Shown: positions 3,155 through 47,553 of the stretch, piece after piece
How positions within the stretch are numbered: the first letter of the stretch is position 1
Layout of the letters: every line of letters starts with the position of its first letter
Virus record (IMG/VR): IMGVR_UViG_2939177367_000001
Direction: 5' to 3' (one strand)
From: a virus
Lineage: Duplodnaviria; Heunggongvirae; Uroviricota; Caudoviricetes
Length of the DNA: 47,553 nucleotides
Position numbers and translations under genes: made by a program
The notes under the pieces: model-generated
Told to the model about the DNA's origin: nothing
Databases searched by the model: none
The model's input: the letters and a program-made list of their open reading frames with translations, nothing else

Positions 3155-3516
3155 TATGCTCCAGCCTCCGGTGCTTTTGGCATTACTGCCCAGTGAGTGA
3201 TATTGACGTTTTCAAGGTCCCCGACCTGAAATGTCCACTGCCATTCTCCGGTTTCTTTTTGTCCCCAGGTGTACCAGAGAGAACGCCAGCCAATTAGCCA
3301 GCCTTCTCCGTTAGCATCGAATAACAAAACACTTTCATTTGCTGGTGGCAGTTCAGTTGACACTGGTATTACTTTGTTTTCCTGTGCTGCACATTTAGCT
3401 TCAAGCGCATCGAATTTACGCACCAGGTATTCAGCATCCGTTTCATTCACTTTCAGATCTCGCGGTACACATCTCCCACGAAGAAACCCTTCCATTTCGA
3501 AAACATTCATGCGCAT
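3154..3516 (-). CDS. hypothetical early-left protein (Trp-rich, possibly DUF551-like)
   Basis: 120-aa ORF with GGAG RBS; family assignment is from memory of motif style only. Confidence 0.45.
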   Translation of the reverse strand: MRMNVFEMEGFLRGRCVPRDLKVNETDAEYLVRKFDALEAKCAAQENKVIPVSTELPPANESVLLFDANGEGWLIGWRSLWYTWGQKETGEWQWTFQVGDLENVNITHWAVMPKAPEAGA

Positions 3517-4043
3517 TTGCGTAACTCCGATAATTCGTTAAAGCGTTCCATAAACATCCCGTAGGCATGGCCTGGAGCCAGTGGAATCACGTTGAACATC
3601 TCTGTTGCCGGGATACCTTCCAGCACAGGCCAGAAAGAGCCATCATCAAGCCCGAGATCGCGGCGTTCGGTTGCCAGCATAATGAGATCGGCATATTTCA
3701 CTGGCGTGCTCATAACAGGAGGTAACCCGTATTTCTCACGGATTACGGCGTCTATTTTTTCTTCCATCCGTTTATAGTCAGGAAGAAGTCGTTTCAGTGG
3801 TGCGGGGATGTCCTGGCAATATGCTTCTGTTGCATCATGCATTAAAGCTTCAAAAGCAAATTCCTGCGGCACCAGCTGGCTGCAAAGCACCGCATGTTGG
3901 GCGACACTGTAGAAGTGTGAAAGATGTCCTGCAAAGCGACAGATATTTGAAAGGGAAACCGCGATATCGTTAATAACGATGTCGTCTTTATTTATCCTGT
4001 CATAATAAAAATGCTTCCCGGAAAAAGTTTTAATAAATGACAT
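3507..4043 (-). CDS. HD-domain phosphohydrolase (178 aa)
   Basis: Motifs H..H (FAGHLSHFYSVAQHA) and HDATE typical of HD superfamily metal-dependent hydrolases; GGAG RBS 7 nt before ATG (MSFIKTF). Confidence 0.7.
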   Translation of the reverse strand: MSFIKTFSGKHFYYDRINKDDIVINDIAVSLSNICRFAGHLSHFYSVAQHAVLCSQLVPQEFAFEALMHDATEAYCQDIPAPLKRLLPDYKRMEEKIDAVIREKYGLPPVMSTPVKYADLIMLATERRDLGLDDGSFWPVLEGIPATEMFNVIPLAPGHAYGMFMERFNELSELRKCA

Positions 4044-4099: not shown

Positions 4100-4587
4100 C
4101 ACCGTCCGGCGATTATTGAGTCAATTACATTTCCATAAATGCCCCCGTAGGGGCGGTTAGTTTCTCCACAAAACAGAGAAGAACACCTGCGGTGGCAGCC
4201 GCCCGGATGGATTGGGTTATGAGCCCGTCGTCCGGTGATGCTCTTCTCTGTTTTGTAAAAAGGACGGTACCAGCCGGAAGCAAGGGTACAAGCTGGTACC
4301 GCCAAGACTACACACAGCATAAAGTTGTGGTGCCGGGTGCCTCCCGGTGCCTGGCGAAGGTTGCACACCAGGCGGGTGGGTATCCACAGAAGGTCGACTG
4401 TCAGCCTCAACCTTAACCCGCGTGCGCTGAGCCGCATTCACCACAACGCTAAGGATTCTCTCTGGTTGAAAATACTTAGCTGTTATGTGCCTGCTTTTAG
4501 CCACATCAGGCGAGGTGGACCTAGTTATTCCCCAACAACAAGGATTCGGTTAATCTGGTTATCCCCAACAACGCAAAAGGAAAAGAA
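4100..4587. ncRNA. GC-rich hairpin-dense noncoding island; candidate structured RNA or regulatory leader (unclassified)
   Basis: No protein-like ORF on either strand; GC content far above flanking genes; 15-bp perfect inverted repeat 4168-4182/4242-4256, 9-bp stem 4266-4274/4292-4300, CCCC/GGGG hairpin 4143-4153, direct repeats GTTAT(T)CCCCAACAAC at 4524 and 4558. Confidence 0.25.
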
Positions 4588-5022
4588 ATGTCCGGTAATA
4601 TCTATACGCTGTACAAATCCCACTGTGAAAATGTTGGAAAGTATCGGGGCATTGAAATCAGTGGGGTAGTGTCATCAGTCGAAATAAGCAAAGTTGAATC
4701 AAGGGCAACATTACTTACTCTTTTGGACCTTGTCTTACATGAGCACCGGAAGAAATTCGGCACTCCCTATAATCAGTTGAATGGGAAAAAGGCTCTGGTT
4801 CACCTTATTCTGATGAAGCATCACTGGATGCCAAAACAGATTAATGAGATGAAATTTGATGAACTTCTTCTTTCAATTCAGGATGAACTCACACTTGATA
4901 AAATAAGCGTAACCGCCCAGAAATTTTTAGATTATCGAGACTGGAGATCACAAATTCATCACTTTGATGATTTTGACGAAAATGAATGGGATCCTAATTT
5001 GTCTGCACAATATCTAAAGTAA
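4588..5022 (+). CDS. hypothetical protein (144 aa), AT-rich orphan gene antisense to the early-left operon
   Basis: Long ORF in AT-rich DNA (about 38% GC) with AAGGA RBS 9 nt upstream; converges on and overlaps the 3' end of the minus-strand gene 4994..5200. Confidence 0.55.
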   Translation: MSGNIYTLYKSHCENVGKYRGIEISGVVSSVEISKVESRATLLTLLDLVLHEHRKKFGTPYNQLNGKKALVHLILMKHHWMPKQINEMKFDELLLSIQDELTLDKISVTAQKFLDYRDWRSQIHHFDDFDENEWDPNLSAQYLK

Positions 5023-5200
5023 CATCCTGTGATAAAACCGTGATTTCCTGATCCAGTTTTTTTAAGGAGTCTATTGTTTCCTGTCGATAAGACAGCACTT
5101 CACGAAGCTGGTTTATAGCTGCCAGCTTCTTTGTCATCCACTCATAAATTTCCTCATCTGTGTAGCCAGGCGCGACGATTTTGGGTTCTGTTTTGTGCAT
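4994..5200 (-). CDS. hypothetical small protein (68 aa), first gene of leftward early operon
   Basis: ATG with GAGGAG RBS 7 nt upstream; coiled-coil-like composition. Confidence 0.45.
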   Translation of the reverse strand: MHKTEPKIVAPGYTDEEIYEWMTKKLAAINQLREVLSYRQETIDSLKKLDQEITVLSQDVTLDIVQTN

Positions 5201-5404
5201 TTCACATCTCCTCAAGTTATCAGTTACTTGTTGATGGGGACCAGATTGTTAAAGAGCTAAGCGTCCTGTAGGGCGCTTTTTTGTTGCTAACGAATCATCC
5301 TGGACTTCATATGCCCCAGGCGGCTACTTCGTGGGCGTCCTGCCTGTTCGTTGTTTCGCTTGGGTACATTATGTATCTCAAAGGTACATTGTCAAGTATA
5401 AAAA

Positions 5405-5428
5405 AACCTGCCGAAGCAGGTTCATAAA
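5405..5428 (-). terminator. rho-independent terminator downstream of repressor gene
   Basis: Hairpin AACCTGC-CGAA-GCAGGTT preceded on + strand by A7 (U-run on minus transcript), immediately 3' of the repressor stop. Confidence 0.5.
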
Positions 5429-5434
5429 CATTGA

Positions 5435-6109
5435 TTAGGCTTTGATTTTGTATCTTCTTGGTTTTCCTGAGAAAATCACTGTACCAATTATAGAGCAATT
5501 ACCGTTGATCTTAATGTAAGGCTCAGGCCAGTTTGGGTTTAACGCTTTGAGATAACGCTGTGTCCCATCTTCTATCAACCTTTTGAAGGTGGTTTCACCT
5601 GTATCGTGCATCAATGCAATAACGTCGTCACCGTGGCAGGCAGGTACTTCAGGATCGACAAAAATCATGTCTCCCGGGCGGTACTCATCAATCATTGAAT
5701 CACCTATCACCCGCAAGATATAAGTCATTTCCCCACAGGGTACAGGGCAGGGATACGTTTCTGCTGTGCTCAAATCAACCTCAGAATATCCAACTTCTTT
5801 CCATGCTCCGGCCTGTACCCATGATATGACAGGGACTAATGTGATTTGTTTATTAGTGATTGAAACATCAGGTTTTTTTGTGATGTTCGTTGTCTGGTGT
5901 TCTTGATCGAGCCATCCGACAGGCAGGTCGAAACATTTTTCGATGTGTCGTGCCATGCTGTCACCGATATTTTTAGTAGCACCATCTCCCATAAACCTGC
6001 TGGTCTGGGTTGGCTCGCGATCAATCATAGTGGCAAAGGAAGAATTCCCGCCAACACCATCTCTCAGTTTTCTGGCGTTAGACCGCCGGATGTCATGGAT
6101 TGTTTTCAT
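5435..6109 (-). CDS. prophage repressor, CI-like with C-terminal S24 (LexA-type) peptidase domain (224 aa)
   Basis: C-terminal VIGDSM...PGDMIFVDPE...KRL matches the S24 Ser/Lys autopeptidase fold; divergently oriented from a Cro-like gene. Confidence 0.85.
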   Translation of the reverse strand: MKTIHDIRRSNARKLRDGVGGNSSFATMIDREPTQTSRFMGDGATKNIGDSMARHIEKCFDLPVGWLDQEHQTTNITKKPDVSITNKQITLVPVISWVQAGAWKEVGYSEVDLSTAETYPCPVPCGEMTYILRVIGDSMIDEYRPGDMIFVDPEVPACHGDDVIALMHDTGETTFKRLIEDGTQRYLKALNPNWPEPYIKINGNCSIIGTVIFSGKPRRYKIKA

Positions 6110-11323: not shown

Positions 11324-12076
11324 ATGAACCTTGAAGCCTTACCGAAATATTACTCCCCAAAATCTCCAAAATTGAGCGATGACGCACCGGCGACAGGCTC
11401 TGGTGGTTTAACAATTACGGATGTGATGGCTGCGCAGGGGATGGTGCAGTCGAAAGCACCGCTTGGGTTTGCCTTATTCCTGGCAAAAGTTGGTGTTCAG
11501 GATCCTCAGTTTGCGATTGAAGGTCTGCTCAATTACGCGATGGCACTGGATAACCCGACATTGAATAAATTGAGTGAAGAAACCCGGCTACAGATTATTC
11601 CTTACCTTGTGAATTTTGCCTTTGCTGATTATTCCAGGTCTGCGGCAAGTAAGGCTCGCTGTGAGCATTGTGCTGGTACTGGATTTCATAATGTATTGCG
11701 CGAAGTGGTGAAACACTCCAGAAGCGGGGAATCTGTTATCAAGGAAGAGTGGGTGAAGGAACTATGTCAGCATTGTCATGGTAAGGGAGAAGTCAGCACA
11801 GCGTGCAGAGGGTGTAAGGGTAAAGGTATTGTCCTGGATGAAAAAAGGACCCGGCTTCATGGCACGCCTGTTTATAAGATTTGTGGGCGTTGCAATGGAA
11901 ATCGGTTTAGCCGTTTACCGACCACACTGGCGCGGCATCATGTCCAGAATCTGGTAACAGACCTGACGGATTATCAGTGGTACAAAGGATATGCAGACGT
12001 CATTGATAAACTGGTTACAAAGTGCTGGCAGGAAGAAGCATATGCTGAAGCGCAATTGAGAAAAGTGACAAGATAA
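11324..12076 (+). CDS. Q: late-gene antiterminator Q (250 aa)
   Basis: CxxC...CxxC zinc-binding core (CEHCAGTG, CQHCHGKG, CRGCKGKG) and position before the lysis cassette; GGAG RBS. Confidence 0.75.
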   Translation: MNLEALPKYYSPKSPKLSDDAPATGSGGLTITDVMAAQGMVQSKAPLGFALFLAKVGVQDPQFAIEGLLNYAMALDNPTLNKLSEETRLQIIPYLVNFAFADYSRSAASKARCEHCAGTGFHNVLREVVKHSRSGESVIKEEWVKELCQHCHGKGEVSTACRGCKGKGIVLDEKRTRLHGTPVYKICGRCNGNRFSRLPTTLARHHVQNLVTDLTDYQWYKGYADVIDKLVTKCWQEEAYAEAQLRKVTR

Positions 12077-12182
12077 ATGATTTTCACCAAAGATAGCGAC
12101 ATGATGCTTGCATTTTTCAAAAAACATGGATAAGATTTTCTCAACGATGGGCTTTGTATGTCTACCGTTGATAAGTCCAAAA

Positions 12183-12213
12183 AACCGCAGCCGAGCGGGT
12201 TAAATTATTTTTT
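12183..12213 (+). terminator. late-promoter-proximal hairpin plus T-run (tR'-like)
   Basis: AACCGCAGCCGAGCGGGTT imperfect stem followed by a T-rich tract, downstream of Q. Confidence 0.3.
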
Positions 12214-12230
12214 CTTACACGGGGATATGG

Positions 12231-12761
12231 ATGTTATACCGAGATCTTCTGCCTATTTTCTCAGAAAGAACCATATTTGAAGCTCCTGAGGCTGAAAGAA
12301 TACTTCGTGAGCAATATTCTATCATTGCCCCCTCTCCTGTAATTCAGGAGATTTATTATGGATTGGTAGGCGATGACAGATTTCAGAAGCTTTATGGGGA
12401 TCTTGATATTGACCAAATTGAATGGAAATTGATTGAACTTCCCACTAAAAACTTTTTAACTATCGGGGATAATGCTACTTGCCCTGATTTTTTGCATGAG
12501 GTCGTTGAAGATTACATGACCCGTAAAGGTGATGTATTTATGGATGATGAAATAAAAGCGCATTGGTGTAATTTTGGCACATGGTGCGAACCACCATTTT
12601 TTATAGATCGAGCTTTGCTGAAAAGTAATACAACAGGGCTCCATTTAATGGAAGGGCATACAAGAGTTGGAACCCTGTTAGGGGCAGTTAAGTATAACTT
12701 CGTTAAGCTTGCTAATACTCATAAAATTTATTATGCGCAAGCAAAAGAATGTATTAAATAA
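12231..12761 (+). CDS. hypothetical moron protein (176 aa), AT-rich
   Basis: Long ORF in AT-rich DNA between Q and the lysis genes; followed by a strong terminator. Confidence 0.55.
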   Translation: MLYRDLLPIFSERTIFEAPEAERILREQYSIIAPSPVIQEIYYGLVGDDRFQKLYGDLDIDQIEWKLIELPTKNFLTIGDNATCPDFLHEVVEDYMTRKGDVFMDDEIKAHWCNFGTWCEPPFFIDRALLKSNTTGLHLMEGHTRVGTLLGAVKYNFVKLANTHKIYYAQAKECIK

Positions 12762-12798
12762 GTTGAGTGAAATTACTGTTGGTTTTTTAACAATACTT

Positions 12799-12820
12799 AC
12801 CGCGTTCTCGCGGTTTTTTT
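12799..12820 (+). terminator. rho-independent terminator
   Basis: CCGCG-TTCT-CGCGG hairpin followed by T7. Confidence 0.55.
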
Positions 12821-12918
12821 ATAAATTAAACATTGGTGCAGTACGGTAAACACGCTGGTGGTCGTGAATACTGACTGTTTATCTTGCTGGCTTTTTAGAC
12901 AAGAGTTATTGGTATGTC

Positions 12919-13137
12919 ATGTTAACCAGAAGGGAAAAAGACATGCTAAAACAGCAAGATATGACAGAAACGGCGAAAGTTGTTTTTAATGAATTAAGCA
13001 TCGAACCGGCAACAGTCGGGGAGATTGCACAAAACACATACCTTTCACGCGAACGCTGTCAGTTAATACTGACCCAGCTGGTTATGGCGGGGCTGGCAGA
13101 TTACCAGTTCGGCTGTTACAGACGCCTTCAGCAATGA
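12919..13137 (+). CDS. small putative winged-helix DNA-binding protein (72 aa)
   Basis: Short ORF upstream of the methyltransferase; wHTH-like segment ATVGEIAQNTYLSRERCQLILTQL. Confidence 0.4.
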   Translation: MLTRREKDMLKQQDMTETAKVVFNELSIEPATVGEIAQNTYLSRERCQLILTQLVMAGLADYQFGCYRRLQQ

Positions 13138-16104: not shown

Positions 16105-16431
16105 ATGACTAAAAATACTCGTTTTTCCCCCGAAGTCCGTCAACGGGCAGTCCGTATGGTTCTGGAAAGTCAGAGCGAATATGACTCACAATGGGCGACA
16201 ATTTGTTCCATTGCTCCAAAGATTGGCTGTACGCCGGAGACTCTGCGTGTCTGGGTTCGCCAGCATGAGCGGGATACCGGGGGCGGTGATGGAGGGCTCA
16301 CCACCGCTGAACGTCAGCGTCTGAAAGAGCTGGAACGTGAAAATCGTGAACTGCGCCGCAGTAACGATATCCTTCGCCAGGCTTCCGCTTATTTTGCGAA
16401 GGCGGAGTTCGACCGCCTCTGGAAAAAATGA
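16105..16431 (+). CDS. IS629-like transposase OrfA (108 aa)
   Basis: HTH plus leucine-zipper protein matching recalled IS629 OrfA. Confidence 0.9.
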
Positions 16432-17318
16432 TGCCACTGCTGGATAAGCTGCGTGAGCAGTACGGGGTCGGACCGCTATGCAGCGAACTGCATATTGCCC
16501 CGTCAACGTATTACCACTGTCAGCAACAGCGACATCATCCGGATAAACGCAGTGCCCGTGCGCAGCGCGATGACTGGCTGAAGAAAGAGATACAGCGCGT
16601 ATACGATGAAAATCACAAGGTATACGGTGTGCGTAAAGTCTGGCGTCAGTTGTTACGGGAAGGTATCAGAGTGGCCAGATGCACTGTGGCACGTCTCATG
16701 GCGGTTATGGGACTTGCCGGTGTTCTCCGGGGTAAAAAGGTCCGTACGACCATCAGCCGGAAAGCCGTTGCCGCAGGCGACCGCGTAAACCGTCAGTTCG
16801 TGGCAGAACGACCTGACCAGCTGTGGGTGGCTGATTTTACTTACGTCAGCACATGGCGGGGCTTCGTCTATGTGGCGTTCATCATTGATGTGTTTGCCGG
16901 ATACATCGTGGGGTGGCGGGTCTCATCGTCCATGGAAACGACATTCGTGCTGGATGCACTGGAGCAGGCGTTATGGGCCCGTCGACCGTCCGGCACGGTC
17001 CATCACAGTGATAAAGGTTCTCAGTATGTATCGCTGGCCTACACACAGCGGCTTAAGGAAGCCGGATTACTGGCATCAACAGGAAGTACAGGCGACTCGT
17101 ATGACAACGCGATGGCGGAGAGCATCAATGGTCTTTACAAAGCGGAGGTAATACACCGTAAGAGCTGGAAAAACCGTGCAGAAGTGGAACTGGCCACACT
17201 CACGTGGGTGGACTGGTATAACAATCGACGATTGCTGGAAAGGCTGGGCCATACTCCTCCGGCAGAAGCAGAAAAAGCTTATTATGCTTCCATCGGAAAC
17301 GATGATCTGGCAGCCTGA
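16428..17318 (+). CDS. IS629-like transposase OrfB (DDE integrase core, 296 aa)
   Basis: DDE catalytic region (WVADFTY..., HSDKGSQY, ...[11 protein letters not shown]); overlaps orfA in the -1 frame across an A6 run, consistent with IS3-family frameshifting. Confidence 0.9.
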
Positions 17319-41100: not shown

Positions 41101-41575
41101 CGCATCCAGTACGGATTTGGGGACGAAAACCACATCGTCGTTTGATTACGGCACTAAATCCACGAATAACACCGGGGCGCATACGCACAGTCTGAGTGGC
41201 TCTACGGGGTCTGCCGGTGCTCATACTCATGGTAATGGTATTCGTTGGCCAGGAGGCGGCGGTTCTGCGTTAGCATTTTATGATGGCGGTGGGTTCACTT
41301 ATGTCAAGGATTCACAGTATCAAGTAAGCCCGGGGACTTCTTCCAGTAGATCGTATTATCAACGTATTCAGACACAGTCAGCAGGTGCTCATACCCACTC
41401 GCTGTCTGGTACTGCAGCAAGTTCTGGCGCACATGCACATACTGTAGGTATTGGTGCGCATACGCACTCGGTTGCGATTGGCTCACATGGACACACCATC
41501 ACCGTTAACGCTGCTGGTAACGCGGAAAACACCGTCAAAAACATCGCATTTAACTATATTGTGAGGCTCGCATAA
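38162..41575 (+). CDS. stf: side tail fibre protein Stf-like (1137 aa) with long Ala/Ser/Thr-rich repeat region and C-terminal His-box repeats
   Basis: N-terminus [29 protein letters not shown] and C-terminal GAHTHS repeats match lambda Stf; central low-complexity repeats. Confidence 0.9.
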
Positions 41576-42156
41576 TGGCATTCAGAATGAGTGAACAAGC
41601 ACGGACCATAAAAATTTATAACCTGCTGGCCGGAACTAATGAATTTATTGGTGAAGGTGACGCATATATTCCGCCTCATACAGGTCTGCCTGCAAACAGT
41701 ACCGATATTGCACCGCCAGATATTCCGGCAGGCTTCGTGGCTGTTTTCAACAGTGATGAGGCATCGTGGCATCTCGTTGAAGACCATCGTGGTAAAACGG
41801 TCTATGACGTGGCTTCCGGCGACGCGTTATTTATTTCTGAACTCGGCTCATTACCGGAAAATGTCACCTGGTTATCCCCGGAAGGGGAGTTTCAGAAGTG
41901 GAACGGTACAGTCTGGGTGAAGGATACGGAAGCAGAAAAACTGTTCCGGATCCGGGAGGCGGAAGAAACAAAAAACAGCTTGATGCAGGTAGCCAGTGAG
42001 CATATAGCGCCGCTTCAGGATGCTGTAGATCTGGAAATCGCAACGGAGGAAGAAATCTCGTTGCTGGAAGCCTGGAAGAAGTATCGGGTGTTGCTGAACC
42101 GTGTTAATACAACAACTGCACCGGATATTGAATGGCCAGTAGCACCTATAGGGTAA
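41575..42156 (+). CDS. tfa: tail fibre assembly protein Tfa (193 aa)
   Basis: Size and synteny after stf; start overlaps stf stop. Confidence 0.85.
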
Positions 42157-43238
42157 ATTCGTAATGATTACCTAAATACGTTATTCTTTTGTTCAAAAAG
42201 TGATTTTGCTATAGGTAGGGAGTATGTTCTTGGATTAAGAATAAAAAATCGCCATGAAAGAGCTTCATGGCGAGTACATAAACGTACAAAATGTGATGAA
42301 AGTAGAGTGGCGTAAGCCACTATATTAAGATATGACAATAGCGAAGAAAAGTAAATAACATTTTATGGACGTTTAATTTTTAATTATAAAAACTAGAGTG
42401 CCCGATATTGTTTATCTTGCTTTAAAATAATGTACTCAAACCAAATTTTTGAGCTAAAAGCTCAAATAATATAAATGCAATAATAATGTTTAATAAGACA
42501 ATTAGCTTGCTTTGTATTTTCATTTCGGAATACTGTTAAGTAACTTTGATGACCCTAACAATAGATCGGAATTTTCTTAGAGTCAATGGTCACTGTTTTT
42601 GCTTGCAAAGCAAATGTTTTGGTGGTTATAAGTTGTCTTAATATAGTCACGCATGCAACTTGTTCCATGCGGAGATTAAAGATTGGAATATAACGCGAAG
42701 ATGGAATTAAATTACATTTGCAATAATCAATTTATTATTACTCAATAATTACCGATATTATTATTGTAAATTAATCATTAGAGTGCAAAAAGAAATGTAA
42801 CGGCAAAATAAGAGGACGATAGCTGAGAAAAAAGCGTGCTTTCCCAATCTGGGGCAAATCACGTCTGAATGACACCTGAAAACAGGTGGTAGCCTCAAGA
42901 AGGCTTGGAATATTCTTCTTTAATGTTATGTAATTCATTGATTTTTCGTGTACGATTTTAAGACATTTATTCCAAGAAAAATTTTTAACTCTTTGATTTT
43001 TCGACTCTGTATCATCGGTCTCGAAAACCGTAGACACATAGTATGCGTTAATTTATGAACAAACTACTTGTCTGCTGTTTTTCTGTCATTAGTCGTATAT
43101 AGAATGATTCTCTATGCCTAACAAAGCATCACCAGTGCTAGATTACGTTGTAGTCACTGTTTAAATATCCAGATAAAACATTTCCTTCTGGGTTGAATGA
43201 GTGATAAAGTTTCACCCATTAGACCCCTTGGAGGAATT

Positions 43239-44706: not shown

Positions 44707-45915
44707 CTATGATAGTTCAGCGTAAAGCTCTATCAGCTCAGTAATGAATGCTCCGAGCGTTATTAATTCTTCTCTAACTGCTTCTGGGTATTTTTTATGT
44801 AAAGTTGATGGTACAACGAGTCTGACACCCGCATCTTTCATTTCTCGGTATTGTGCTGAAGAAACACCTTCTTGCAGTGTAAATAAATGTACCTGATGGA
44901 TTTTATCTGCTTCATTCAGTATCTGACGCCAGCGATCTTTGCAGGTGGTCTTTACTGCCAGCATACGTAAGTTTTCTACAGGAAATTCAACGTTATGATA
45001 TGCCTCTGCTGAAGGAAACAGGAAATCTGGTTTTTTATTACCTTCAGTAACTGCCTGAGTGGAGAAATGCCGTAGTCCGTGCTCGATAAAAAGCTTCTCT
45101 AGGTGAAGTTCAAGTGATTTGCCTGCCCTTGATTTACGTCGATTACTGACAGAGTTGGCTAATGCAATAAACTCATCTACAGAATCGAATCCTTTCTTAA
45201 TAATATCAAGAACATGTAATTCCTCGACGAGTAGAAAAATATCATACTCGACACGCCGACGGTCAATCAGTTGCTCATCTGGATCCTTGGAGTTTTTAGC
45301 ATAATGGCCAGCAGCATATTGAATAATTTCGTTTCCAGAAGGAAAACGCTTCTTCCAGTCTTCAGGAATAACATATTTATGATTTACTGGAGTTTGCTGA
45401 AGAGACAATCCGCCCAAAATTTGTCCGGCAGGGCCGGAAATTAGGGTTCCAGGTATGATTTCGCCAATAGCAGACTCGATGATATCCTCTTCATCGGGAT
45501 TGACGCAGACCCATATATCTACCTCGGAACAGTCAGTGTTCTGTTCGTTTAACCTGAAAGCAAGAATTGTGAGGGCTCCTGTATTTTCAGGGTTCTGTAA
45601 TGGACTTCCTCTCCCCCAGCGCGTAATTCTTTTTTCGTTTCGGGTCTTACCAAAATAACGGTTGTTGTAATAAATTGCGCGTGCTTGGGTATCAGGGCAA
45701 TCATGGGATGATACATGCGCAGTAAGGAAGACTGAAGGGTTCAGTTCGCGAGTATGATTGATAGATGGAAAAAGCTTTTCAACGATATTTGAGGGGATAT
45801 AAAGTCCGACCTGATGGCCACCTGTTGCGCCTGTGTCGTTTGCAGAAAGGCGTTTGATGTAGATAAAGTAATTCCCGCTTGCGATATCAAGCAGCCAGTT
45901 ATGAAAAACCGACAT
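44707..45915 (-). CDS. ecoRIIR: type IIE restriction endonuclease, EcoRII-like (about 402 aa)
   Basis: Translation MSVFHNWLL...YIKRLSANDTGATGGHQVGLYIP matches recalled R.EcoRII; convergent with its methyltransferase. Confidence 0.85.
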   Translation of the reverse strand: MSVFHNWLLDIASGNYFIYIKRLSANDTGATGGHQVGLYIPSNIVEKLFPSINHTRELNPSVFLTAHVSSHDCPDTQARAIYYNNRYFGKTRNEKRITRWGRGSPLQNPENTGALTILAFRLNEQNTDCSEVDIWVCVNPDEEDIIESAIGEIIPGTLISGPAGQILGGLSLQQTPVNHKYVIPEDWKKRFPSGNEIIQYAAGHYAKNSKDPDEQLIDRRRVEYDIFLLVEELHVLDIIKKGFDSVDEFIALANSVSNRRKSRAGKSLELHLEKLFIEHGLRHFSTQAVTEGNKKPDFLFPSAEAYHNVEFPVENLRMLAVKTTCKDRWRQILNEADKIHQVHLFTLQEGVSSAQYREMKDAGVRLVVPSTLHKKYPEAVREELITLGAFITELIELYAELS

Positions 45916-46000
45916 ATACATCCCTTTGTTAACATACAGTCAGGGTTAACATTTTTCCATAGTTATAGATAAGCGGCTAGGAACTTAAGGGAAAAACAAA

Positions 46001-46020
46001 AAGCCCGCATAAGCGGGCTT
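46001..46020. terminator. symmetric hairpin flanked by A-run and T-run (bidirectional terminator-like)
   Basis: AAGCCCGC-ATAA-GCGGGCTT with A and T tracts on either side. Confidence 0.45.
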
Positions 46021-46587
46021 TTGTGTCACTCGAGAGCCGCGGCTCCTTTGCGTATCCTTTTTTGTCTCCTCACCGTCTGGTCGGTGTCCTGCTAAGACTG
46101 CTAACTTCCTGTTTTTGTTGGTGTTGTCCTTACACCGTCCAATCATGATTGGTGGGCTGGCGGGAGTTGAAACCGCAGCCACGTCGTATGCAAGAACGTG
46201 CTGCGGTTGGCTGGTGAACTTCCGATAGTGCGAGTATTGAATGATTTCCAACTGTTATCGATTTTGCGTATTTTTTGCATGAGAGGATTTTTACCTCCTC
46301 CCGCCGATCCTCCATGGCTTTACGCCTGTGTCTCTGGTCTGCTCTGTGCCAATTGCAGACGTTGTTGCACTGCAAAAATATCTTGTCCGGATCAAGGTAT
46401 CGCCACCACTTGTTAGGTGGATTAATCCGTATTTATAACAAATACAATTCCCGGCTGTACCTATAAGCTGTTGTCAGTTATACAAAAGCGATGTAGTGTT
46501 CCACACATTAAATTTACAAACGTGGAAAAGTCCGTGTTTAGATACAGATTTTTCCGCTGAATAACCGCATATTTCCAAAGGTTTATC

Positions 46588-47553
46588 ATGAGTAAGTGGC
46601 TATTAGACAGGCTATTTGAAGCCGGTGATCAGGCAGAGCCCCGGTTTGCGTTTCAGGGGACTGTAAATTGGATGAGGGCCCTTGCCGAAGTCGTTAACGG
46701 TGGCGCTTGTGCCGATGATAAACTAAATGATTTATATGCTCGGGTACAACGTAGACCTGTCAATCGTGAAGCTGATACGCTTGTGTTTGAGAACACAATG
46801 ATGGCCTTACATAATCTGTCATCTTTGAAAAGTATGAATAAAGATGTCGAAGATAAATATGACATATGTCGTTCAGCTATTATTTCTTGGTATTACAGTA
46901 TCTATTTTTCCGCTAGCGCGATGGTTGCAGCATCTTCTGGTTCTATTCAAGAGACACATACAGCCACAGCAAAAGTTTGGCAGTCAGATATCGCGGAAAA
47001 AGAACTTATCCCATATCCATTTAATCTTCTTCTAACTAGTTTAGTTTCAAACACTGCTGATGCCGAGATTGCTGCATATAGAGGTGCTAACCGTTTCGAC
47101 CTGAATAATAGAGCTTATGATAATGAAACTGCTCATGGTGCACTGGTTTCCTATCTAAAGGGGACTCATGGCTACAAAAAGTGGGAAACAGAAGAGAGGG
47201 TGAGAACTTCTCGTGATTTCAAAGCTCTTGGTGTTGACAACTTTCGCACGAAAGCTGCTCGCGAAGTTCGCGATCACGCACTAGAAAAAGGACAAGTTAA
47301 TTTCCTTATTCAGGCATTTAGATACCGTGGTAAAGCGAACTATCGTGACTCTATATTTTTATCCTACGGTGACAACAACGAAGCTATTATAGAAGAATTT
47401 ATCCAAGATTTGTATGATGTCGCTATTGGCTTCATTAGGGCTACTTCGCATTATTGCAGTCGAAGAGTCGAGAGAGGTACGTGGGCTGAGTTTGTCGAGG
47501 ATATTTCTGATAACTCAAGGTTGTCTATTGACTCTGTCGTGCTTGAAATATAA
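46588..47553 (+). CDS. hypothetical protein (321 aa), unknown function
   Basis: Complete ORF ending at the last base of the window; protein-like composition; preceded by a 660-bp intergenic region with promoter-like AT-rich DNA. Confidence 0.6.
   Translation: MSKWLLDRLFEAGDQAEPRFAFQGTVNWMRALAEVVNGGACADDKLNDLYARVQRRPVNREADTLVFENTMMALHNLSSLKSMNKDVEDKYDICRSAIISWYYSIYFSASAMVAASSGSIQETHTATAKVWQSDIAEKELIPYPFNLLLTSLVSNTADAEIAAYRGANRFDLNNRAYDNETAHGALVSYLKGTHGYKKWETEERVRTSRDFKALGVDNFRTKAAREVRDHALEKGQVNFLIQAFRYRGKANYRDSIFLSYGDNNEAIIEEFIQDLYDVAIGFIRATSHYCSRRVERGTWAEFVEDISDNSRLSIDSVVLEI

What the first reader, a model, noticed from the sequence alone, without database searches (positions are those of the whole stretch)
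4100..5022. GC-rich hairpin-dense noncoding island coupled to an AT-rich orphan gene lying antisense inside the early-left operon
Between the HD hydrolase gene and the 4588..5022 ORF is about 490 bp with no plausible coding frame, far higher GC than its neighbours, and dense secondary structure. It contains a 15-bp perfect inverted repeat (4168-4182 with 4242-4256) enclosing a branched interior of about 60 nt, a 9-bp stem (4266-4274 with 4292-4300), a CCCC/GGGG hairpin and two direct repeats GTTAT(T)CCCCAACAAC 34 bp apart just before the start codon. The 144-aa gene that follows is AT-rich, has no recognisable domain, and points against the leftward early operon. A structured-RNA-plus-small-protein module in a prophage accessory slot is the architecture of RNA-guided or RNA-antitoxin defence and addiction modules, yet there is no reverse transcriptase (so not a retron) and no tandem toxI-type repeats.
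Basis: seen in the sequence. Interest (0 to 1): 0.7.

Follow-up and report, generated by a model that had tools for sequence, protein, structure and literature searches.

The report
Structured early-left leader RNA of prophage
The GC-rich island is a conserved, multi-part structured RNA on the opposite strand from the 144-aa gene: a DicF/STnc100-type small-RNA unit ending in a terminator, followed by an undescribed three-way-junction RNA that copies the anticodon hairpin of initiator tRNA. The 144-aa gene is a separate, swappable cargo gene.

Summary
In detail: the inverted repeats, hairpins, direct repeats and GC contrast are all at the stated coordinates. The interpretation (an RNA-plus-protein defence or addiction module) does not hold.

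The structure lies on the minus strand, the sense strand of the repressor-controlled early-left operon, and has two parts:
- **Small-RNA unit, 4447..4257.** This 191-nt unit is an STnc100-type multibranch, a conserved single-stranded stretch and an intrinsic terminator. It has the same build as the 190-nt long form of DicF in the Qin dicBF operon.
- **Module A, 4267..4160.** This three-way junction is absent from Rfam. It shows strong covariation and conserved G·U pairs. Its apical hairpin GGGCUCAUAACCC is identical to the anticodon stem-loop of E. coli initiator tRNA.

Module A occurs in more than 100 phage contigs, only about 14 of which carry the 144-aa gene. A relative of that gene occurs without module A.

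The 144-aa protein belongs to a real all-alpha family (ECs1072) with no known fold or domain. It travels with a convergent, overlapping 68-aa gene.

Most likely mechanism, by analogy with DicF: termination and RNase III/E processing release small RNAs, while read-through transcripts carry module A as a cis-regulatory leader. The function of module A is not shown.

The parts
5368..5395 (-). Promoter-like site TTGACA-16-CATAAT, taken as the early-left promoter pL (context). It is flanked by repeated GGTACATT operator-like half sites, just downstream of the terminator of the repressor gene ymfK.
   Evidence: 11 of 12 matches; terminator-like site at 5423..5404; sequence; annotation.
5246..5278 (-). 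Hairpin followed by AGCUCUUUAACAA, a near-perfect rrn-type boxA, in the first 120 nt of the presumed pL transcript (context).
   Evidence: The exact 12-mer occurs once in the window; 0.31 matches with up to one mismatch are expected by chance. The same motif is found on the sense strand only, 900-1700 nt upstream of module A, in 21 of 127 loci.
4994..5200 (-). 68-aa ORF (phrog_1744), the first ORF after pL. It is convergent with the 144-aa gene and overlaps its 3' end by 29 nt.
   Evidence: It co-occurs with divergent relatives of the 144-aa protein in L022 and L121. Similar convergent small ORFs occur in L134, L240 and L242.
4588..5022 (+). 144-aa gene of the ECs1072 family (NF033230, phrog_5286). 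The protein is all-alpha with no known domain or fold. It is an independent cargo gene.
4524..4572 (.). Two direct repeats (GTTATTCCCCAACAAC and GTTATCCCCAACAAC on the plus strand; UUGUUGGGGA on the minus strand). They lie in the 5' untranslated region of the 144-aa gene. On the minus strand, the proximal copy is the loop of a hairpin (H0) whose stem covaries in other phages.
   Evidence: Conserved in F1055, Kp4866-6, L117 and L120; stems CUUGG/CCAAG, GCUGG/CCAGC and ACUGG/CCAGU are seen.
4482..4518 (-). Conserved box CCACCUCGCCUGAUGUGGCUAAAAGCAGGCACAUAAC. It marks the 5' edge of the shared leader. Its role is unresolved: an RNA hairpin GCCUG/CAGGC, or a plus-strand promoter/operator.
   Evidence: In phage LLS it lies about 13 nt after the predicted start of the pL transcript. 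One compensatory variant GCCGG/CCGGC occurs in L241.
4448..4480 (-). Hairpin ('domain c') just 5' of the small-RNA domain. It is variable and much larger in other phages.
   Evidence: (I2).
4324..4447 (-). STnc100-type multibranch domain closed by GUUGUGGUG / CACCACAAC, with the family core GGUGAAU...CACCGGGAGGCACCCGGCACCA.
   Evidence: RF02076, 43.4 bits, gathering score 47, E 1e-7; I5; 12 of 25 consensus pairs have compensatory changes.
4302..4323 (-). Conserved single-stranded stretch UUUAUGCUGUGUGUAGUCUUGG, a candidate seed. It occupies the position of the 5' half of DicF.
4257..4303 (-). Intrinsic terminator: a hairpin of up to 13 bp followed by UCCUUUUU (U tract 4261..4257). The stem differs, with both arms changed, between phages.
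   Evidence: I4. Different stems are visible. Equivalent terminators were called by the scan in LLS and phiES15.
4160..4267 (-). Module A, a three-way-junction RNA. P1 is 23 bp and includes the terminator U tract paired with GGAGA. P2 is a conserved arm. P3 is a hairpin of variable length.
   Evidence: 97% of cells paired against 40-54% when the partners are slid; 9 pairs and 44 cells with double changes; 0 of 500 shuffles reach this. (covariance model R1: 114 bits on the minus strand, 38 on the plus). No Rfam family matches.
4214..4226 (-). Apical hairpin of P2, GGGCUCAUAACCC. It is identical to positions 29-41 of E. coli initiator tRNA-fMet: three G-C pairs plus the loop CUCAUAA with anticodon CAU.
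   Evidence: unique in the window; 0.04 expected by chance. The tRNA sequence was verified. With flanks, 17 of 20 bases are identical.
4140..4155 (-). Small GC hairpin between module A and the first early-left gene. This 84-nt segment travels with the upstream side of yfdR.
   Evidence: the segment 4071-4154 matches the region upstream of yfdR homologues in L003 and L004.
3507..4043 (-). yfdR (HD-domain 5'-deoxynucleotidase), the first early-left gene after the leader in this prophage. yfdP and yfdQ, present in relatives, are absent here.

Best explanation
The island is the structured leader and small-RNA region of the repressor-controlled early-left operon, read on the minus strand. It is not a partner of the 144-aa gene.

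**Proposed path of the transcript.** Transcripts that start at pL (about 5361) cross the 68-aa ORF and the antisense of the 144-aa gene. They then enter a conserved leader made of hairpin H0, the box, a hairpin, an STnc100-type multibranch, a conserved single-stranded stretch and a strong intrinsic terminator.

**Small RNAs.** The 191 nt from 4447 to 4257 have the same build as the 190-nt long form of DicF in the Qin dicBF operon. By that analogy, termination together with RNase III and RNase E processing would release a small RNA of about 190 nt and a shorter one of about 60 nt. These would be Hfq-type small RNAs that act in trans through the conserved single-stranded stretch.

**Read-through.** Transcripts that pass the terminator fold module A, whose long P1 helix takes in the terminator U tract. 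I take module A to be a cis-acting element that sets the processing, stability or translation of the downstream early-left genes (yfdR ... xis, int). It would do so through a factor that recognises its copy of the initiator-tRNA anticodon hairpin.

**The protein genes.** The 144-aa gene and the convergent 68-aa gene form a separate two-gene cargo cassette in the same slot.

**Shown:** strand, structure, covariation, modularity, family resemblance, and independence from the 144-aa gene.
**Inferred:** transcription from pL, RNase processing, Hfq dependence, and every functional role of module A.
For: **Strand and structure**
- Minus-strand fold z = -7.9 against -4.3 for the plus strand.
- Module A: 97% of cells paired; 9 pairs and 44 cells with double changes; conserved U·G pairs that would be C·A mismatches on the plus strand; 0 of 500 shuffles reach the observed values; slid controls give 40-54%.
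- Covariance model R1 scores 114 bits on the minus strand against 38 on the plus.

**Not coding**
- Substitutions are even over codon positions.

**Family**
- STnc100 scores 43.4 bits, E 1e-7.
- The shared architecture has 12 of 25 pairs with compensatory changes, across 4 early-left and 13 canonical members.

**Position**
- In e14, SfV, SfII, SfIV, ST64B, mEp460, Stx2c phages, phiES15, F1055, Kp4866-6 and LLS the homologous segments lie between the repressor gene and the first early-left gene.
- In LLS, L033 and L080 the leader follows the predicted pL directly, with no ORF in between.

**DicF parallel**
- The Qin locus has a box-like element, a hairpin, an STnc100-like domain, DicF (76.7 bits), a second STnc100-like domain (38.8 bits) and then dicB.
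- The window's stretch plus terminator aligns with DicF and shares UUGGCGGUAYCAG.

**Independence from the 144-aa gene:**

**Initiator-tRNA hairpin:**
Against: - There is no transcript, processing or Hfq-binding data for this locus or its close relatives.
- The STnc100 and DicF matches are below Rfam's gathering scores (43.4 against 47; 19.4 against 48).
- No promoter other than the distant pL was found, and pL itself is only a consensus match.
- How the polymerase passes the strong terminator is unknown. No N-like protein and no second copy of any leader element downstream of pR was found.
- Conservation of the tRNA-like loop is partly a product of my search pattern, which required GGGCTCAT. 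The e14 copy has UUAAUAA.
- Relatives of the 144-aa protein do recur next to hairpin H0 and the box (window, L022, L134, L241). Some regulatory link at that edge, such as a shared promoter or operator, is therefore not excluded.
Confidence: 0.7

Rival explanations
1. One reading: the structured RNA and the 144-aa protein form one defence or addiction module, with the RNA as antitoxin or guide and the protein as effector.
For: - The two are adjacent.
- Relatives of the protein at 72%, 36% and 30% identity also start next to hairpin H0 and the box (L134, L022, L241).
- Two repeats lie directly upstream of the start codon.
- The slot next to the repressor is a usual place for genes expressed from a prophage (established knowledge of lambda rexAB and sieB).
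- An ECs1072 probe gave a signal in an O157 lysogen (PMC2241611).
Against: - The covarying structure is on the other strand.
- Module A and the STnc100-type domain occur without the protein in more than 100 loci.
- The protein family occurs without module A (L133, L240, L241).
- There is no tandem array, no PADLOC hit, no fold match to any toxin, and no terminator between the repeats and the gene.
Confidence: 0.07
2. Module A, alone or with the box, is a cis-acting processive antitermination RNA comparable to HK022 put. It would let the polymerase read through terminators of the early-left operon in a phage that has no N protein.
For: - The prophage has Q but no N-like gene.
- In LLS, L033 and L080 the leader elements come straight after pL, as putL does (PMC9378689).
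- A strong terminator sits in the leader with no ORF before it in LLS.
Against: - There is no sequence or shape similarity to putL or putR.
- No second copy lies downstream of pR.
- Module A lies after, not before, the leader terminator in nearly all loci.
- In the window the leader is about 800 nt from pL.
- No strong intrinsic terminators were found further down the operon.
Confidence: 0.1
3. Module A is mainly an RNase III processing site. Its 23-25 bp P1 helix would separate the small RNA from the early-left mRNA, and the tRNA-like hairpin would be incidental.
For: - P1 is a long, nearly perfect duplex that abuts the terminator.
- RNase III processing is documented in the homologous dicBF leader.
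Against: - The most conserved part of module A is P2 with its loops, not P1, whose sequence varies with compensation. RNase III would not need P2.
- The mapped RNase III site in Qin is 5' of the STnc100-like domain, and Qin has no module A.
Confidence: 0.15
4. The island is a decayed protein-coding remnant, a ymfH-type pseudogene as annotated.
For: - PGAP annotates 'protein YmfH' over the e14 copy and a frameshifted hypothetical protein here.
- Stop-free stretches of 79-126 codons exist in the sense frames.
Against: - Substitutions show no third-position excess.
- The 112-aa ORF has no NCBIfam hit.
- Conservation follows base-pairing with compensatory changes.
- The segments shuffle independently at sub-ORF scale.
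Confidence: 0.03

Closest known systems
DicF and the dicBF operon leader of the Qin cryptic prophage (E. coli K-12)
   Same: - It lies in the repressor-controlled early-left-type operon of a lambdoid prophage.
- An STnc100-like multibranch domain is followed by a single-stranded stretch and an intrinsic terminator. The unit is about 190 nt (191 nt here).
- The start of the terminator stem shares UUGGCGGUAYCAG.
- It sits upstream of the first larger early-left gene.
   Different: - The Rfam DicF score is only 19.4 bits against a gathering score of 48.
- The single-stranded stretch differs (UGCUGUGUGUAGUCUU against UUUCUGGUGACGUU), so the targets should differ.
- The multibranch is of another subtype.
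- Qin has a second STnc100-like domain instead of module A before dicB.
STnc100 (Rfam RF02076) and PasD, prophage-encoded Hfq-associated small RNAs
   Same: - Closing stem, GGUGAAU, first hairpin, central helix and the invariant CACCGGGAGGCACCCGGCACCA.
- A 3' intrinsic terminator.
- Compensatory changes link the window copy to canonical members.
   Different: - The score is below the gathering score (43.4 against 47).
- The first hairpin is GCGGCUCAGCGC instead of CCCCCUGUGCGGAGGGG.
- It lies in the early-left leader, not downstream of Q or stx, where canonical copies lie.
- No promoter of its own was seen, whereas some members have one right at the closing stem (L137, L139, L143).
HK022 putL/putR antiterminator RNAs
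   Same: A cis-acting structured RNA placed early in the pL transcript of a lambdoid phage that lacks N.
   Different: No similarity in sequence or shape. There is a single copy only. Module A lies downstream of the terminator.
mRNA leaders that mimic a tRNA anticodon arm (the thrS operator bound by threonyl-tRNA synthetase; from my own knowledge), and the initiator tRNA anticodon arm as substrate of enteric VapC toxins
   Same: A hairpin in an mRNA leader copies the anticodon stem-loop of a specific tRNA. Here it is the three G-C pairs and the CUCAUAA loop of tRNA-fMet. Enteric VapC cuts that stem-loop between A38 and C39 (PMC4105405).
   Different: No binding partner is known here. The rest of the tRNA is not copied in the window. 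The hairpin sits in a three-way junction about 170 nt upstream of the next start codon, not at a ribosome-binding site.
Cargo genes next to the immunity region that are expressed from the prophage (lambda rexAB and sieB type; from my own knowledge)
   Same: The 144-aa/68-aa cassette sits between the repressor gene and the early-left genes. Its members differ from phage to phage (ymfI/ymfJ in e14, other genes elsewhere).
   Different: There is no homology to any known exclusion or defence protein. Its orientation is opposite to that of the repressor gene.

Membership tests
STnc100 (RF02076) | Score at or above Rfam's gathering score (47 bits) | tested here: not met
   43.4 bits, E 1e-7, model positions 1-206. 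Related early-left copies score 40.6 and 35.1 bits.
STnc100 (RF02076) | Family architecture: closing stem, GGUGAAU, 5' hairpin, central helix, penultimate hairpin, CCGGG-AGGCA-CCCGG hairpin next to the 3' strand of the closing stem | tested here: met
   The consensus of 17 sequences includes the window copy. 12 of 25 pairs have changes on both sides.
STnc100 (RF02076) | Ends in an intrinsic terminator | tested here: met
   Hairpin 4303..4263 plus UCCUUUUU. The stem differs between phages with pairing kept.
STnc100 (RF02076) | Expressed small RNA that binds Hfq | not testable with these tools
   No expression data for this locus.
DicF (RF00039) | Score at or above Rfam's gathering score (48 bits) | tested here: not met
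   19.4 bits, E 0.022 in a 116-nt search. Authentic DicF scores 76.7 bits.
DicF (RF00039) | Placed after an STnc100-like domain in the early-left-type operon, and forming with it a unit of about 190 nt that ends at a terminator | tested here: met
   Window 4447..4257 is 191 nt. For Qin.
DicF (RF00039) | [quoted passage not shown] | not testable with these tools
   The single-stranded stretch differs from DicF. Targets were not searched.
Retron (msr-msd plus reverse transcriptase) | A reverse transcriptase gene directly next to the non-coding RNA | tested here: not met
   Neighbours are yfdR and the 144-aa gene. The only reverse transcriptase in the window is at 46275-47498, 42 kb away, with its own Ec48-type effector.
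Type III toxin-antitoxin (ToxIN, CptIN, TenpIN) | A tandem array of antitoxin RNA repeats on the same strand upstream of the toxin gene, separated from it by a terminator | tested here: not met
   Tandem Repeats Finder finds no array. There are only two 15-16 nt repeats. No plus-strand terminator lies between them and the start codon.
Type III toxin-antitoxin (ToxIN, CptIN, TenpIN) | A toxin of the ToxN/AbiQ endoribonuclease fold | tested here: not met
HK022 put-type antiterminator RNA | A two-stem RNA of about 70 nt just after pL, with a related copy after pR | tested here: not met
   No similarity to putL or putR. Model R1 finds one copy only in the window.
ECs1072 family phage-associated protein (NF033230) | Score above NCBIfam's cut-off (70 bits) over the full length | tested here: met
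   157.8 bits, residues 4-144. It also matches phrog_5286 at 302 bits.
Mimic of the initiator tRNA anticodon arm | Three consecutive G-C pairs closing a 7-nt loop CUCAUAA (anticodon CAU) | tested here: met
   GGGCUCAUAACCC at 4226..4214 is identical to tRNA-fMet positions 29-41. It is predicted as an apical hairpin.
Mimic of the initiator tRNA anticodon arm | Binding to, or cleavage by, a factor that recognises the initiator anticodon arm (30S P site/IF3, MetRS, VapC) | not testable with these tools
   No experiment was possible.

The most novel reading that the evidence does not exclude
Module A is a previously undescribed class of phage leader RNA, widespread in lambdoid prophages of Escherichia, Shigella, Salmonella, Klebsiella, Citrobacter and Enterobacter. 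Its conserved arm would be a working mimic of the initiator-tRNA anticodon stem-loop. It would either engage the translation-initiation machinery (30S P site/IF3, or MetRS) to set expression of the early-left genes, or act as a decoy or sensor for anticodon nucleases that cut tRNA-fMet, such as the VapC/MvpT toxins of Shigella and Salmonella.
Probability: 0.22. Interest if true: 0.8.

Novelty: new variant of a known kind. Interest (0 to 1): 0.6.

Why it matters
- **The small-RNA unit widens the DicF paradigm.** Small RNAs processed from a repressor-controlled early-left prophage transcript are shown to have the same build in many lambdoid phages. The finding also ties DicF, STnc100 and PasD together as variations on one modular RNA build. 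That gives a concrete prediction for where the 190-nt form of DicF comes from: STnc100-like domain plus DicF.
- **Module A is common but uncurated.** Some part of the queried stretch is present in about half of complete E. coli genomes (2783 of 5426), and module A is the most widespread piece. It has no Rfam family and I found no paper on it. It carries an exact copy of the initiator-tRNA anticodon hairpin. If that copy is functional, it would be a new way for temperate phages to connect early gene expression to the host's initiation machinery or to tRNA-cutting toxins.
- **The ymfH and 'frameshifted hypothetical protein' annotations over this RNA are probably wrong.** This matters for reading screens such as the retron-Sen2 trigger screen, in which a 'ymfH' clone scored.

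Tried and rejected
- **Rfam at gathering scores.** Nothing in the island. In E-value mode only sub-threshold STnc100 and weak DicF matches appear.
- **HK022 put.** I fetched putL and putR; there is no similarity.
- **Second copy of module A downstream of pR.** None found.
- **Retron.** No adjacent reverse transcriptase.
- **Type III toxin-antitoxin.** No tandem array and no PADLOC hit.
- **Coding remnant.** Rejected by the codon-position test. The indel counts in that script are unreliable, because gap columns shared by all rows were counted, and I do not use them.
- **tRNA genes.** ARAGORN calls none in the leaders of nine loci.
- **Fold of the 144-aa protein.**
  - The PDB sequence profile search found nothing.
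  - The afdb50 library was not available.
- **Unbiased sampling of the tRNA-like loop.** My pattern for genome contigs was too degenerate.
- **Promoter for the 144-aa gene.** None found by the consensus scan. An extended -10-like TGGTATNNT inside the box is conserved in e14, phiES15, L022, L083 and L241 but is broken in the window (my reading).
- **Complement of the candidate seed.** It has no other site in the window. Host targets could not be searched.
- **boxA.** It is present only in loci with this immunity type (21 of 127), so it is not a general part of the leader.
Full report
**Setting**

The window is a lambda-like prophage of E. coli integrated at the proA/thrW site. It is 100% identical over the queried stretch to strain NS-NP030. 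From the left end the order is as follows.
- Minus strand: integrase, an excisionase-like HTH gene, yfdT, a phage gene, then yfdR (an HD-domain 5'-deoxynucleotidase, 3507-4043).
- The island.
- The 144-aa gene (4588-5022, plus strand).
- A 68-aa ORF (4994-5200, minus strand).
- The LexA-like repressor ymfK (5435-6109, minus strand), followed on the plus strand by cro-like ymfT and ymfL.

A consensus promoter, TTGACA-16-CATAAT, lies at 5395..5368 on the minus strand. It sits just past the repressor's terminator and among repeated GGTACATT half sites. I take it as the early-left promoter pL. This is a consensus match, not proof. The prophage has a Q antiterminator gene but no N-like gene.

**The observation**

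- The GC contrast is real but moderate: 0.53-0.58 against 0.35-0.46.
- The island folds far better than shuffled sequence, and better on the minus strand (z = -7.9) than on the plus strand (z = -4.3).
- ORFs of up to 112 codons do cross it, and public annotation calls them YmfH or a frameshifted pseudogene.
- Substitutions against three relatives are spread evenly over codon positions, so it is not under coding selection.

**What the island is made of**

BLAST shows that the island is a mosaic of separately mobile segments. I extracted the homologous regions from ten phages and prophages of Escherichia, Shigella, Salmonella, Klebsiella and Cronobacter. In every one the segments lie between the repressor gene and the first sizeable early-left gene, and they share one order on the early-left sense strand. 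In window coordinates, read 5' to 3' on the minus strand, the order is:
1. The two repeats UUGUUGGGGA. The proximal one forms the loop of hairpin H0, whose stem changes with compensation between phages (CUUGG/CCAAG, GCUGG/CCAGC, ACUGG/CCAGU).
2. A 37-nt conserved box (4518..4482).
3. A hairpin (4480..4448).
4. A multibranch closed by GUUGUGGUG/CACCACAAC (4447..4324).
5. A conserved single-stranded stretch (4323..4302).
6. An intrinsic terminator (hairpin 4303..4263, U tract 4261..4257).
7. A three-way junction that I call module A (4267..4160).
8. A small GC hairpin (4155..4140).

In phage LLS the predicted pL fires straight into the box, and no ORF precedes the terminator. In L033 the order is pL, terminator, module A. 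In L080 pL is followed directly by module A. The elements are therefore leader RNA of the early-left operon, and in this window a two-gene cassette sits between pL and the leader.

**The small-RNA unit**

Rfam in E-value mode matches STnc100 (RF02076) over 4477..4254 on the minus strand. The score is 43.4 bits against a gathering score of 47, with E = 1e-7. Early-left copies in phiES15 and ST64B score 40.6 and 35.1 bits.

A scan of viral contigs with the invariant core ACCGGGAGGCACCCGGCACCA returned many family members. An alignment of 17 diverse sequences, the window included, gives a common architecture in which 12 of 25 pairs carry compensatory changes. Some members have a sigma-70 promoter with the start right at the closing stem (L137, L139, L143). 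The window copy has none that I could see.

According to the literature held here, STnc100 and the related PasD are prophage-encoded Hfq-associated small RNAs. They usually lie near Q, stx or the lysis genes (bioRxiv 10.64898/2026.05.13.724894; PMC12370729).

The decisive comparison is with the Qin prophage. Between ydfC and dicB lie a box-like element, a hairpin, an STnc100-like domain, DicF (76.7 bits) and a second STnc100-like domain of the window's subtype (38.8 bits).

DicF is known to exist in two forms. The 190-nt form has a 5' end made by RNase III, and the 53-nt form has a 5' end made by RNase E. Both are cut from the DicA-repressed polycistronic transcript, with no internal promoter (bioRxiv 10.1101/2023.04.14.536235, citing Faubladier et al. 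1990). In the Qin sequence, 190 nt upstream of the end of the DicF terminator is the start of the STnc100-like domain. The long form is therefore that domain plus DicF.

The window's counterpart, 4447..4257, is 191 nt. Its stretch plus terminator aligns with DicF and shares UUGGCGGUAYCAG. The DicF model scores only 19.4 bits, and the single-stranded stretch is different. I therefore file this part as a relative of DicF and STnc100 in build and position. It is not a member of either Rfam family by their thresholds.

**Module A**

There were 58 distinct sequences of the element.

On 24 diverse sequences RNAalifold gives a three-way junction.
- P1 has 23 pairs.
- P2 has 10 pairs, with near-invariant loops.
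- P3 is a hairpin whose length varies from about 15 to 45 nt.

The counts for this structure are:
- 97% of cells form standard pairs, against 40-54% when the partners are slid.
- 9 pairs and 44 cells have changes on both sides, for example G-C 13 / C-G 11 at one pair.
- None of 500 shuffles reaches the observed pairing or covariation.
- Several pairs are conserved U·G, which would be C·A on the other strand.
- The covariance model R1 scores 114 bits on the minus strand and 38 on the plus strand.

The outer end of P1 pairs the terminator's U tract with the conserved GGAGA that follows the junction. This explains why GGAGAA is conserved. In almost all loci the terminator abuts P1. No Rfam family matches, and I found no paper describing the element.

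The apical hairpin of P2 reads GGGCUCAUAACCC (4226..4214). This is identical to positions 29-41 of E. coli initiator tRNA-fMet, that is the three G-C pairs that mark initiator tRNAs plus the loop with anticodon CAU. With flanks, 17 of 20 bases match (CGACGGGCUCAUAACCCAAU against CGUCGGGCUCAUAACCCGAA). I checked the tRNA sequence against 5425 genomes: 100% identity, a median of four copies per genome, annotated tRNA-Met. The 13-mer is unique in the window, with 0.04 expected by chance.

Three caveats apply.
- My viral scan pattern required GGGCTCAT, so loop conservation in that set is not independent evidence.
- Copies found by BLAST have CUCAUAA or CUCAUUA (Salmonella, Klebsiella), and the defective e14 has UUAAUAA.
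- Four copies found with a loop-free pattern all have CUCAUAA.

In Salmonella and Klebsiella relatives the hairpin domain upstream also holds T-arm-like hairpins, for example GUCCGUUCAAUUCGGAC compared with the tRNA-fMet T arm GUCGGUUCAAAUCCGGC. ARAGORN calls no tRNA there.

What the mimic does is unknown. Factors known to read this hairpin are the 30S P site with IF3, and MetRS (my own knowledge). The VapC toxins of Shigella and Salmonella also read it, and cut tRNA-fMet between A38 and C39 (PMC4105405).

**The 144-aa gene**

The protein matches NF033230, 'ECs1072 family phage-associated protein' (157.8 bits), and phrog_5286. It has no Pfam or PADLOC hit.

An exhaustive HMMER search of 1.8 billion cluster representatives finds 65 relatives, nearly all 145-155 aa. 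H72 and W134 are invariant, and R39, L46, L50, R54, L64, G66, A69 and W80 are nearly so.

AlphaFold2 with 38 sequences gives a confident all-alpha model (pLDDT 93.9, pTM 0.88). It has no significant match in PDB or BFVD.

The gene is convergent with the 68-aa ORF, and the two overlap by 29 nt.
- Both recur together at 36-45% identity in L022 and L121.
- A small convergent ORF overlaps relatives of the protein in L134, L240 and L242.

This is a conserved two-gene cassette of unknown function. e14 has the unrelated pair ymfI/ymfJ in the same arrangement. An ECs1072 probe changed 2.1-fold between growth phases in O157 Sakai, so a family member is transcribed in a lysogen (PMC2241611).

**Are the RNA and the protein coupled?**

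The evidence against coupling:
- Of about 128 loci with module A, about 14 encode this protein, and four more have weak partial matches, only one of them next to module A.
- The 56%-identical relative in L133 has no module A beside it, and has an STnc100-like domain on its other side.
- The relative in L240 has a 103-nt spacer to a phage CsrA gene and no leader RNA.
- The relative in L241 has H0, the box and an STnc100-like domain, but no module A.

What does recur next to the start codon of family members is the H0/repeat motif and the box. That edge may hold the gene's promoter, operator or 5' untranslated region. On the plus strand the box carries an extended -10-like TGGTATNNT in several phages, but this is broken in the window. 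The repeats there read ACAAGGA, which resembles a CsrA site, and one copy overlaps the ribosome-binding site. These are leads only.

**Mechanism, with its status**

- **Shown:** the strand, the structures, their covariation, their modular spread, their position in the early-left leader, the family resemblance, and the independence of module A from the 144-aa gene.
- **Inferred from the DicF precedent:**
  - transcription from pL after derepression, or at a low level in lysogens;
  - partial termination at 4257-4261;
  - RNase III and RNase E cuts that release small RNAs of about 190 nt and about 60 nt;
  - Hfq-dependent action in trans through the conserved stretch.
- **Inferred from anatomy only:** module A acts in cis on read-through transcripts. 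My split among its possible roles is:
  - a leader that controls translation or stability through a factor that reads the initiator-like hairpin, 0.35;
  - an RNase III site, 0.2;
  - a decoy or sensor for an anticodon nuclease, 0.15;
  - antitermination, 0.1-0.15;
  - other, the remainder.
- **Unexplained:** how the terminator is passed.

**Verdict**

The proposed RNA-protein module is not supported. The island is a DicF/STnc100-type small-RNA unit plus an undescribed, widespread, strongly covarying leader RNA that carries an exact copy of the initiator-tRNA anticodon hairpin.

Noticed in passing
window 45512-47498 (-): A retron of the Ec48 type lies at the right end of the window: a reverse transcriptase (46275-47498) plus a 'retron Ec48 family effector membrane protein' (45512-46258). 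Its msr-msd would lie beyond or at the window edge. It has nothing to do with the island 42 kb away.
   Followed up: no
window 5246-5278 (-): About 85-115 nt after the presumed pL start there is a hairpin followed by AGCUCUUUAACAA, almost the rrn boxA consensus (UGCUCUUUAACAA, from memory). The order is hairpin then boxA, as in rrn leaders rather than as in lambda nut. The motif is present on the sense strand only in 21 of 127 related loci.
   Followed up: partly
window 4588-5200; L022, L121, L134, L240, L242: The 144-aa gene and a small ORF on the other strand overlap at their 3' ends. They recur together at 35-45% identity, so they form a conserved convergent two-gene cassette of unknown function. 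e14 has the unrelated pair ymfI/ymfJ in the same geometry.
   Followed up: partly
L240 2-169 (-), next to the P0016 gene at 273-713: In one contig, a relative of the 144-aa protein (38% identity) sits 103 nt from a phage-encoded CsrA-family gene. The repeats upstream of the 144-aa gene in the window read ACAAGGA on the plus strand, which is close to the CsrA consensus, and the second copy overlaps the ribosome-binding site.
   Followed up: no
L007 about 2700-2830, L008, L009 (minus strand of each locus): In Salmonella and Klebsiella relatives, the hairpin domain upstream of the STnc100-like domain is a 119-nt multibranch with two T-arm-like hairpins (CUGGUUCGAUUCCAG and GUCCGUUCAAUUCGGAC). The second resembles the T arm of tRNA-fMet. 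ARAGORN calls no tRNA there.
   Followed up: partly
L363 1370-1558 (Qin dicF locus, E. coli SK1144): The published 190-nt long form of DicF corresponds in the sequence to an STnc100-like domain plus the 53-nt DicF. A second STnc100-like domain (Rfam 38.8 bits) lies between DicF and dicB. This link between DicF and STnc100 is not mentioned in the papers I read.
   Followed up: partly
e14 ymfH (L002 2981-3292, minus strand): A plasmid clone of 'ymfH' was a trigger of the retron-Sen2 toxin RcaT in a published screen (bioRxiv 10.1101/2020.06.22.160242). That ORF is the sense strand of module A plus part of the STnc100-type domain, so the active agent may have been the RNA.
   Followed up: no
window 41918-42116 (+) and 16386-16502 (+): There are two Rfam matches above their gathering scores. 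IS009 (220 bits) lies antisense within the GIY-YIG domain gene at 41548-42321. The ALIL pseudoknot (120 bits) lies near bor, with no IS3-family transposase annotated there.
   Followed up: no
L003 5562-5750 and L006 5732-5920 (+): The Stx2c phage and ST64B carry an isrK plus C4 antisense RNA pair (Rfam 60-80 bits) downstream of the replication-side early genes. The window has no such pair.
   Followed up: no
window 11734-13133 (-): Two minus-strand genes, a DUF6731 family protein and a hypothetical protein, sit directly after the Q antiterminator gene and against the direction of late transcription. This is another cargo slot. Canonical STnc100 copies sit near here in other phages, but none is found here.
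   Followed up: no
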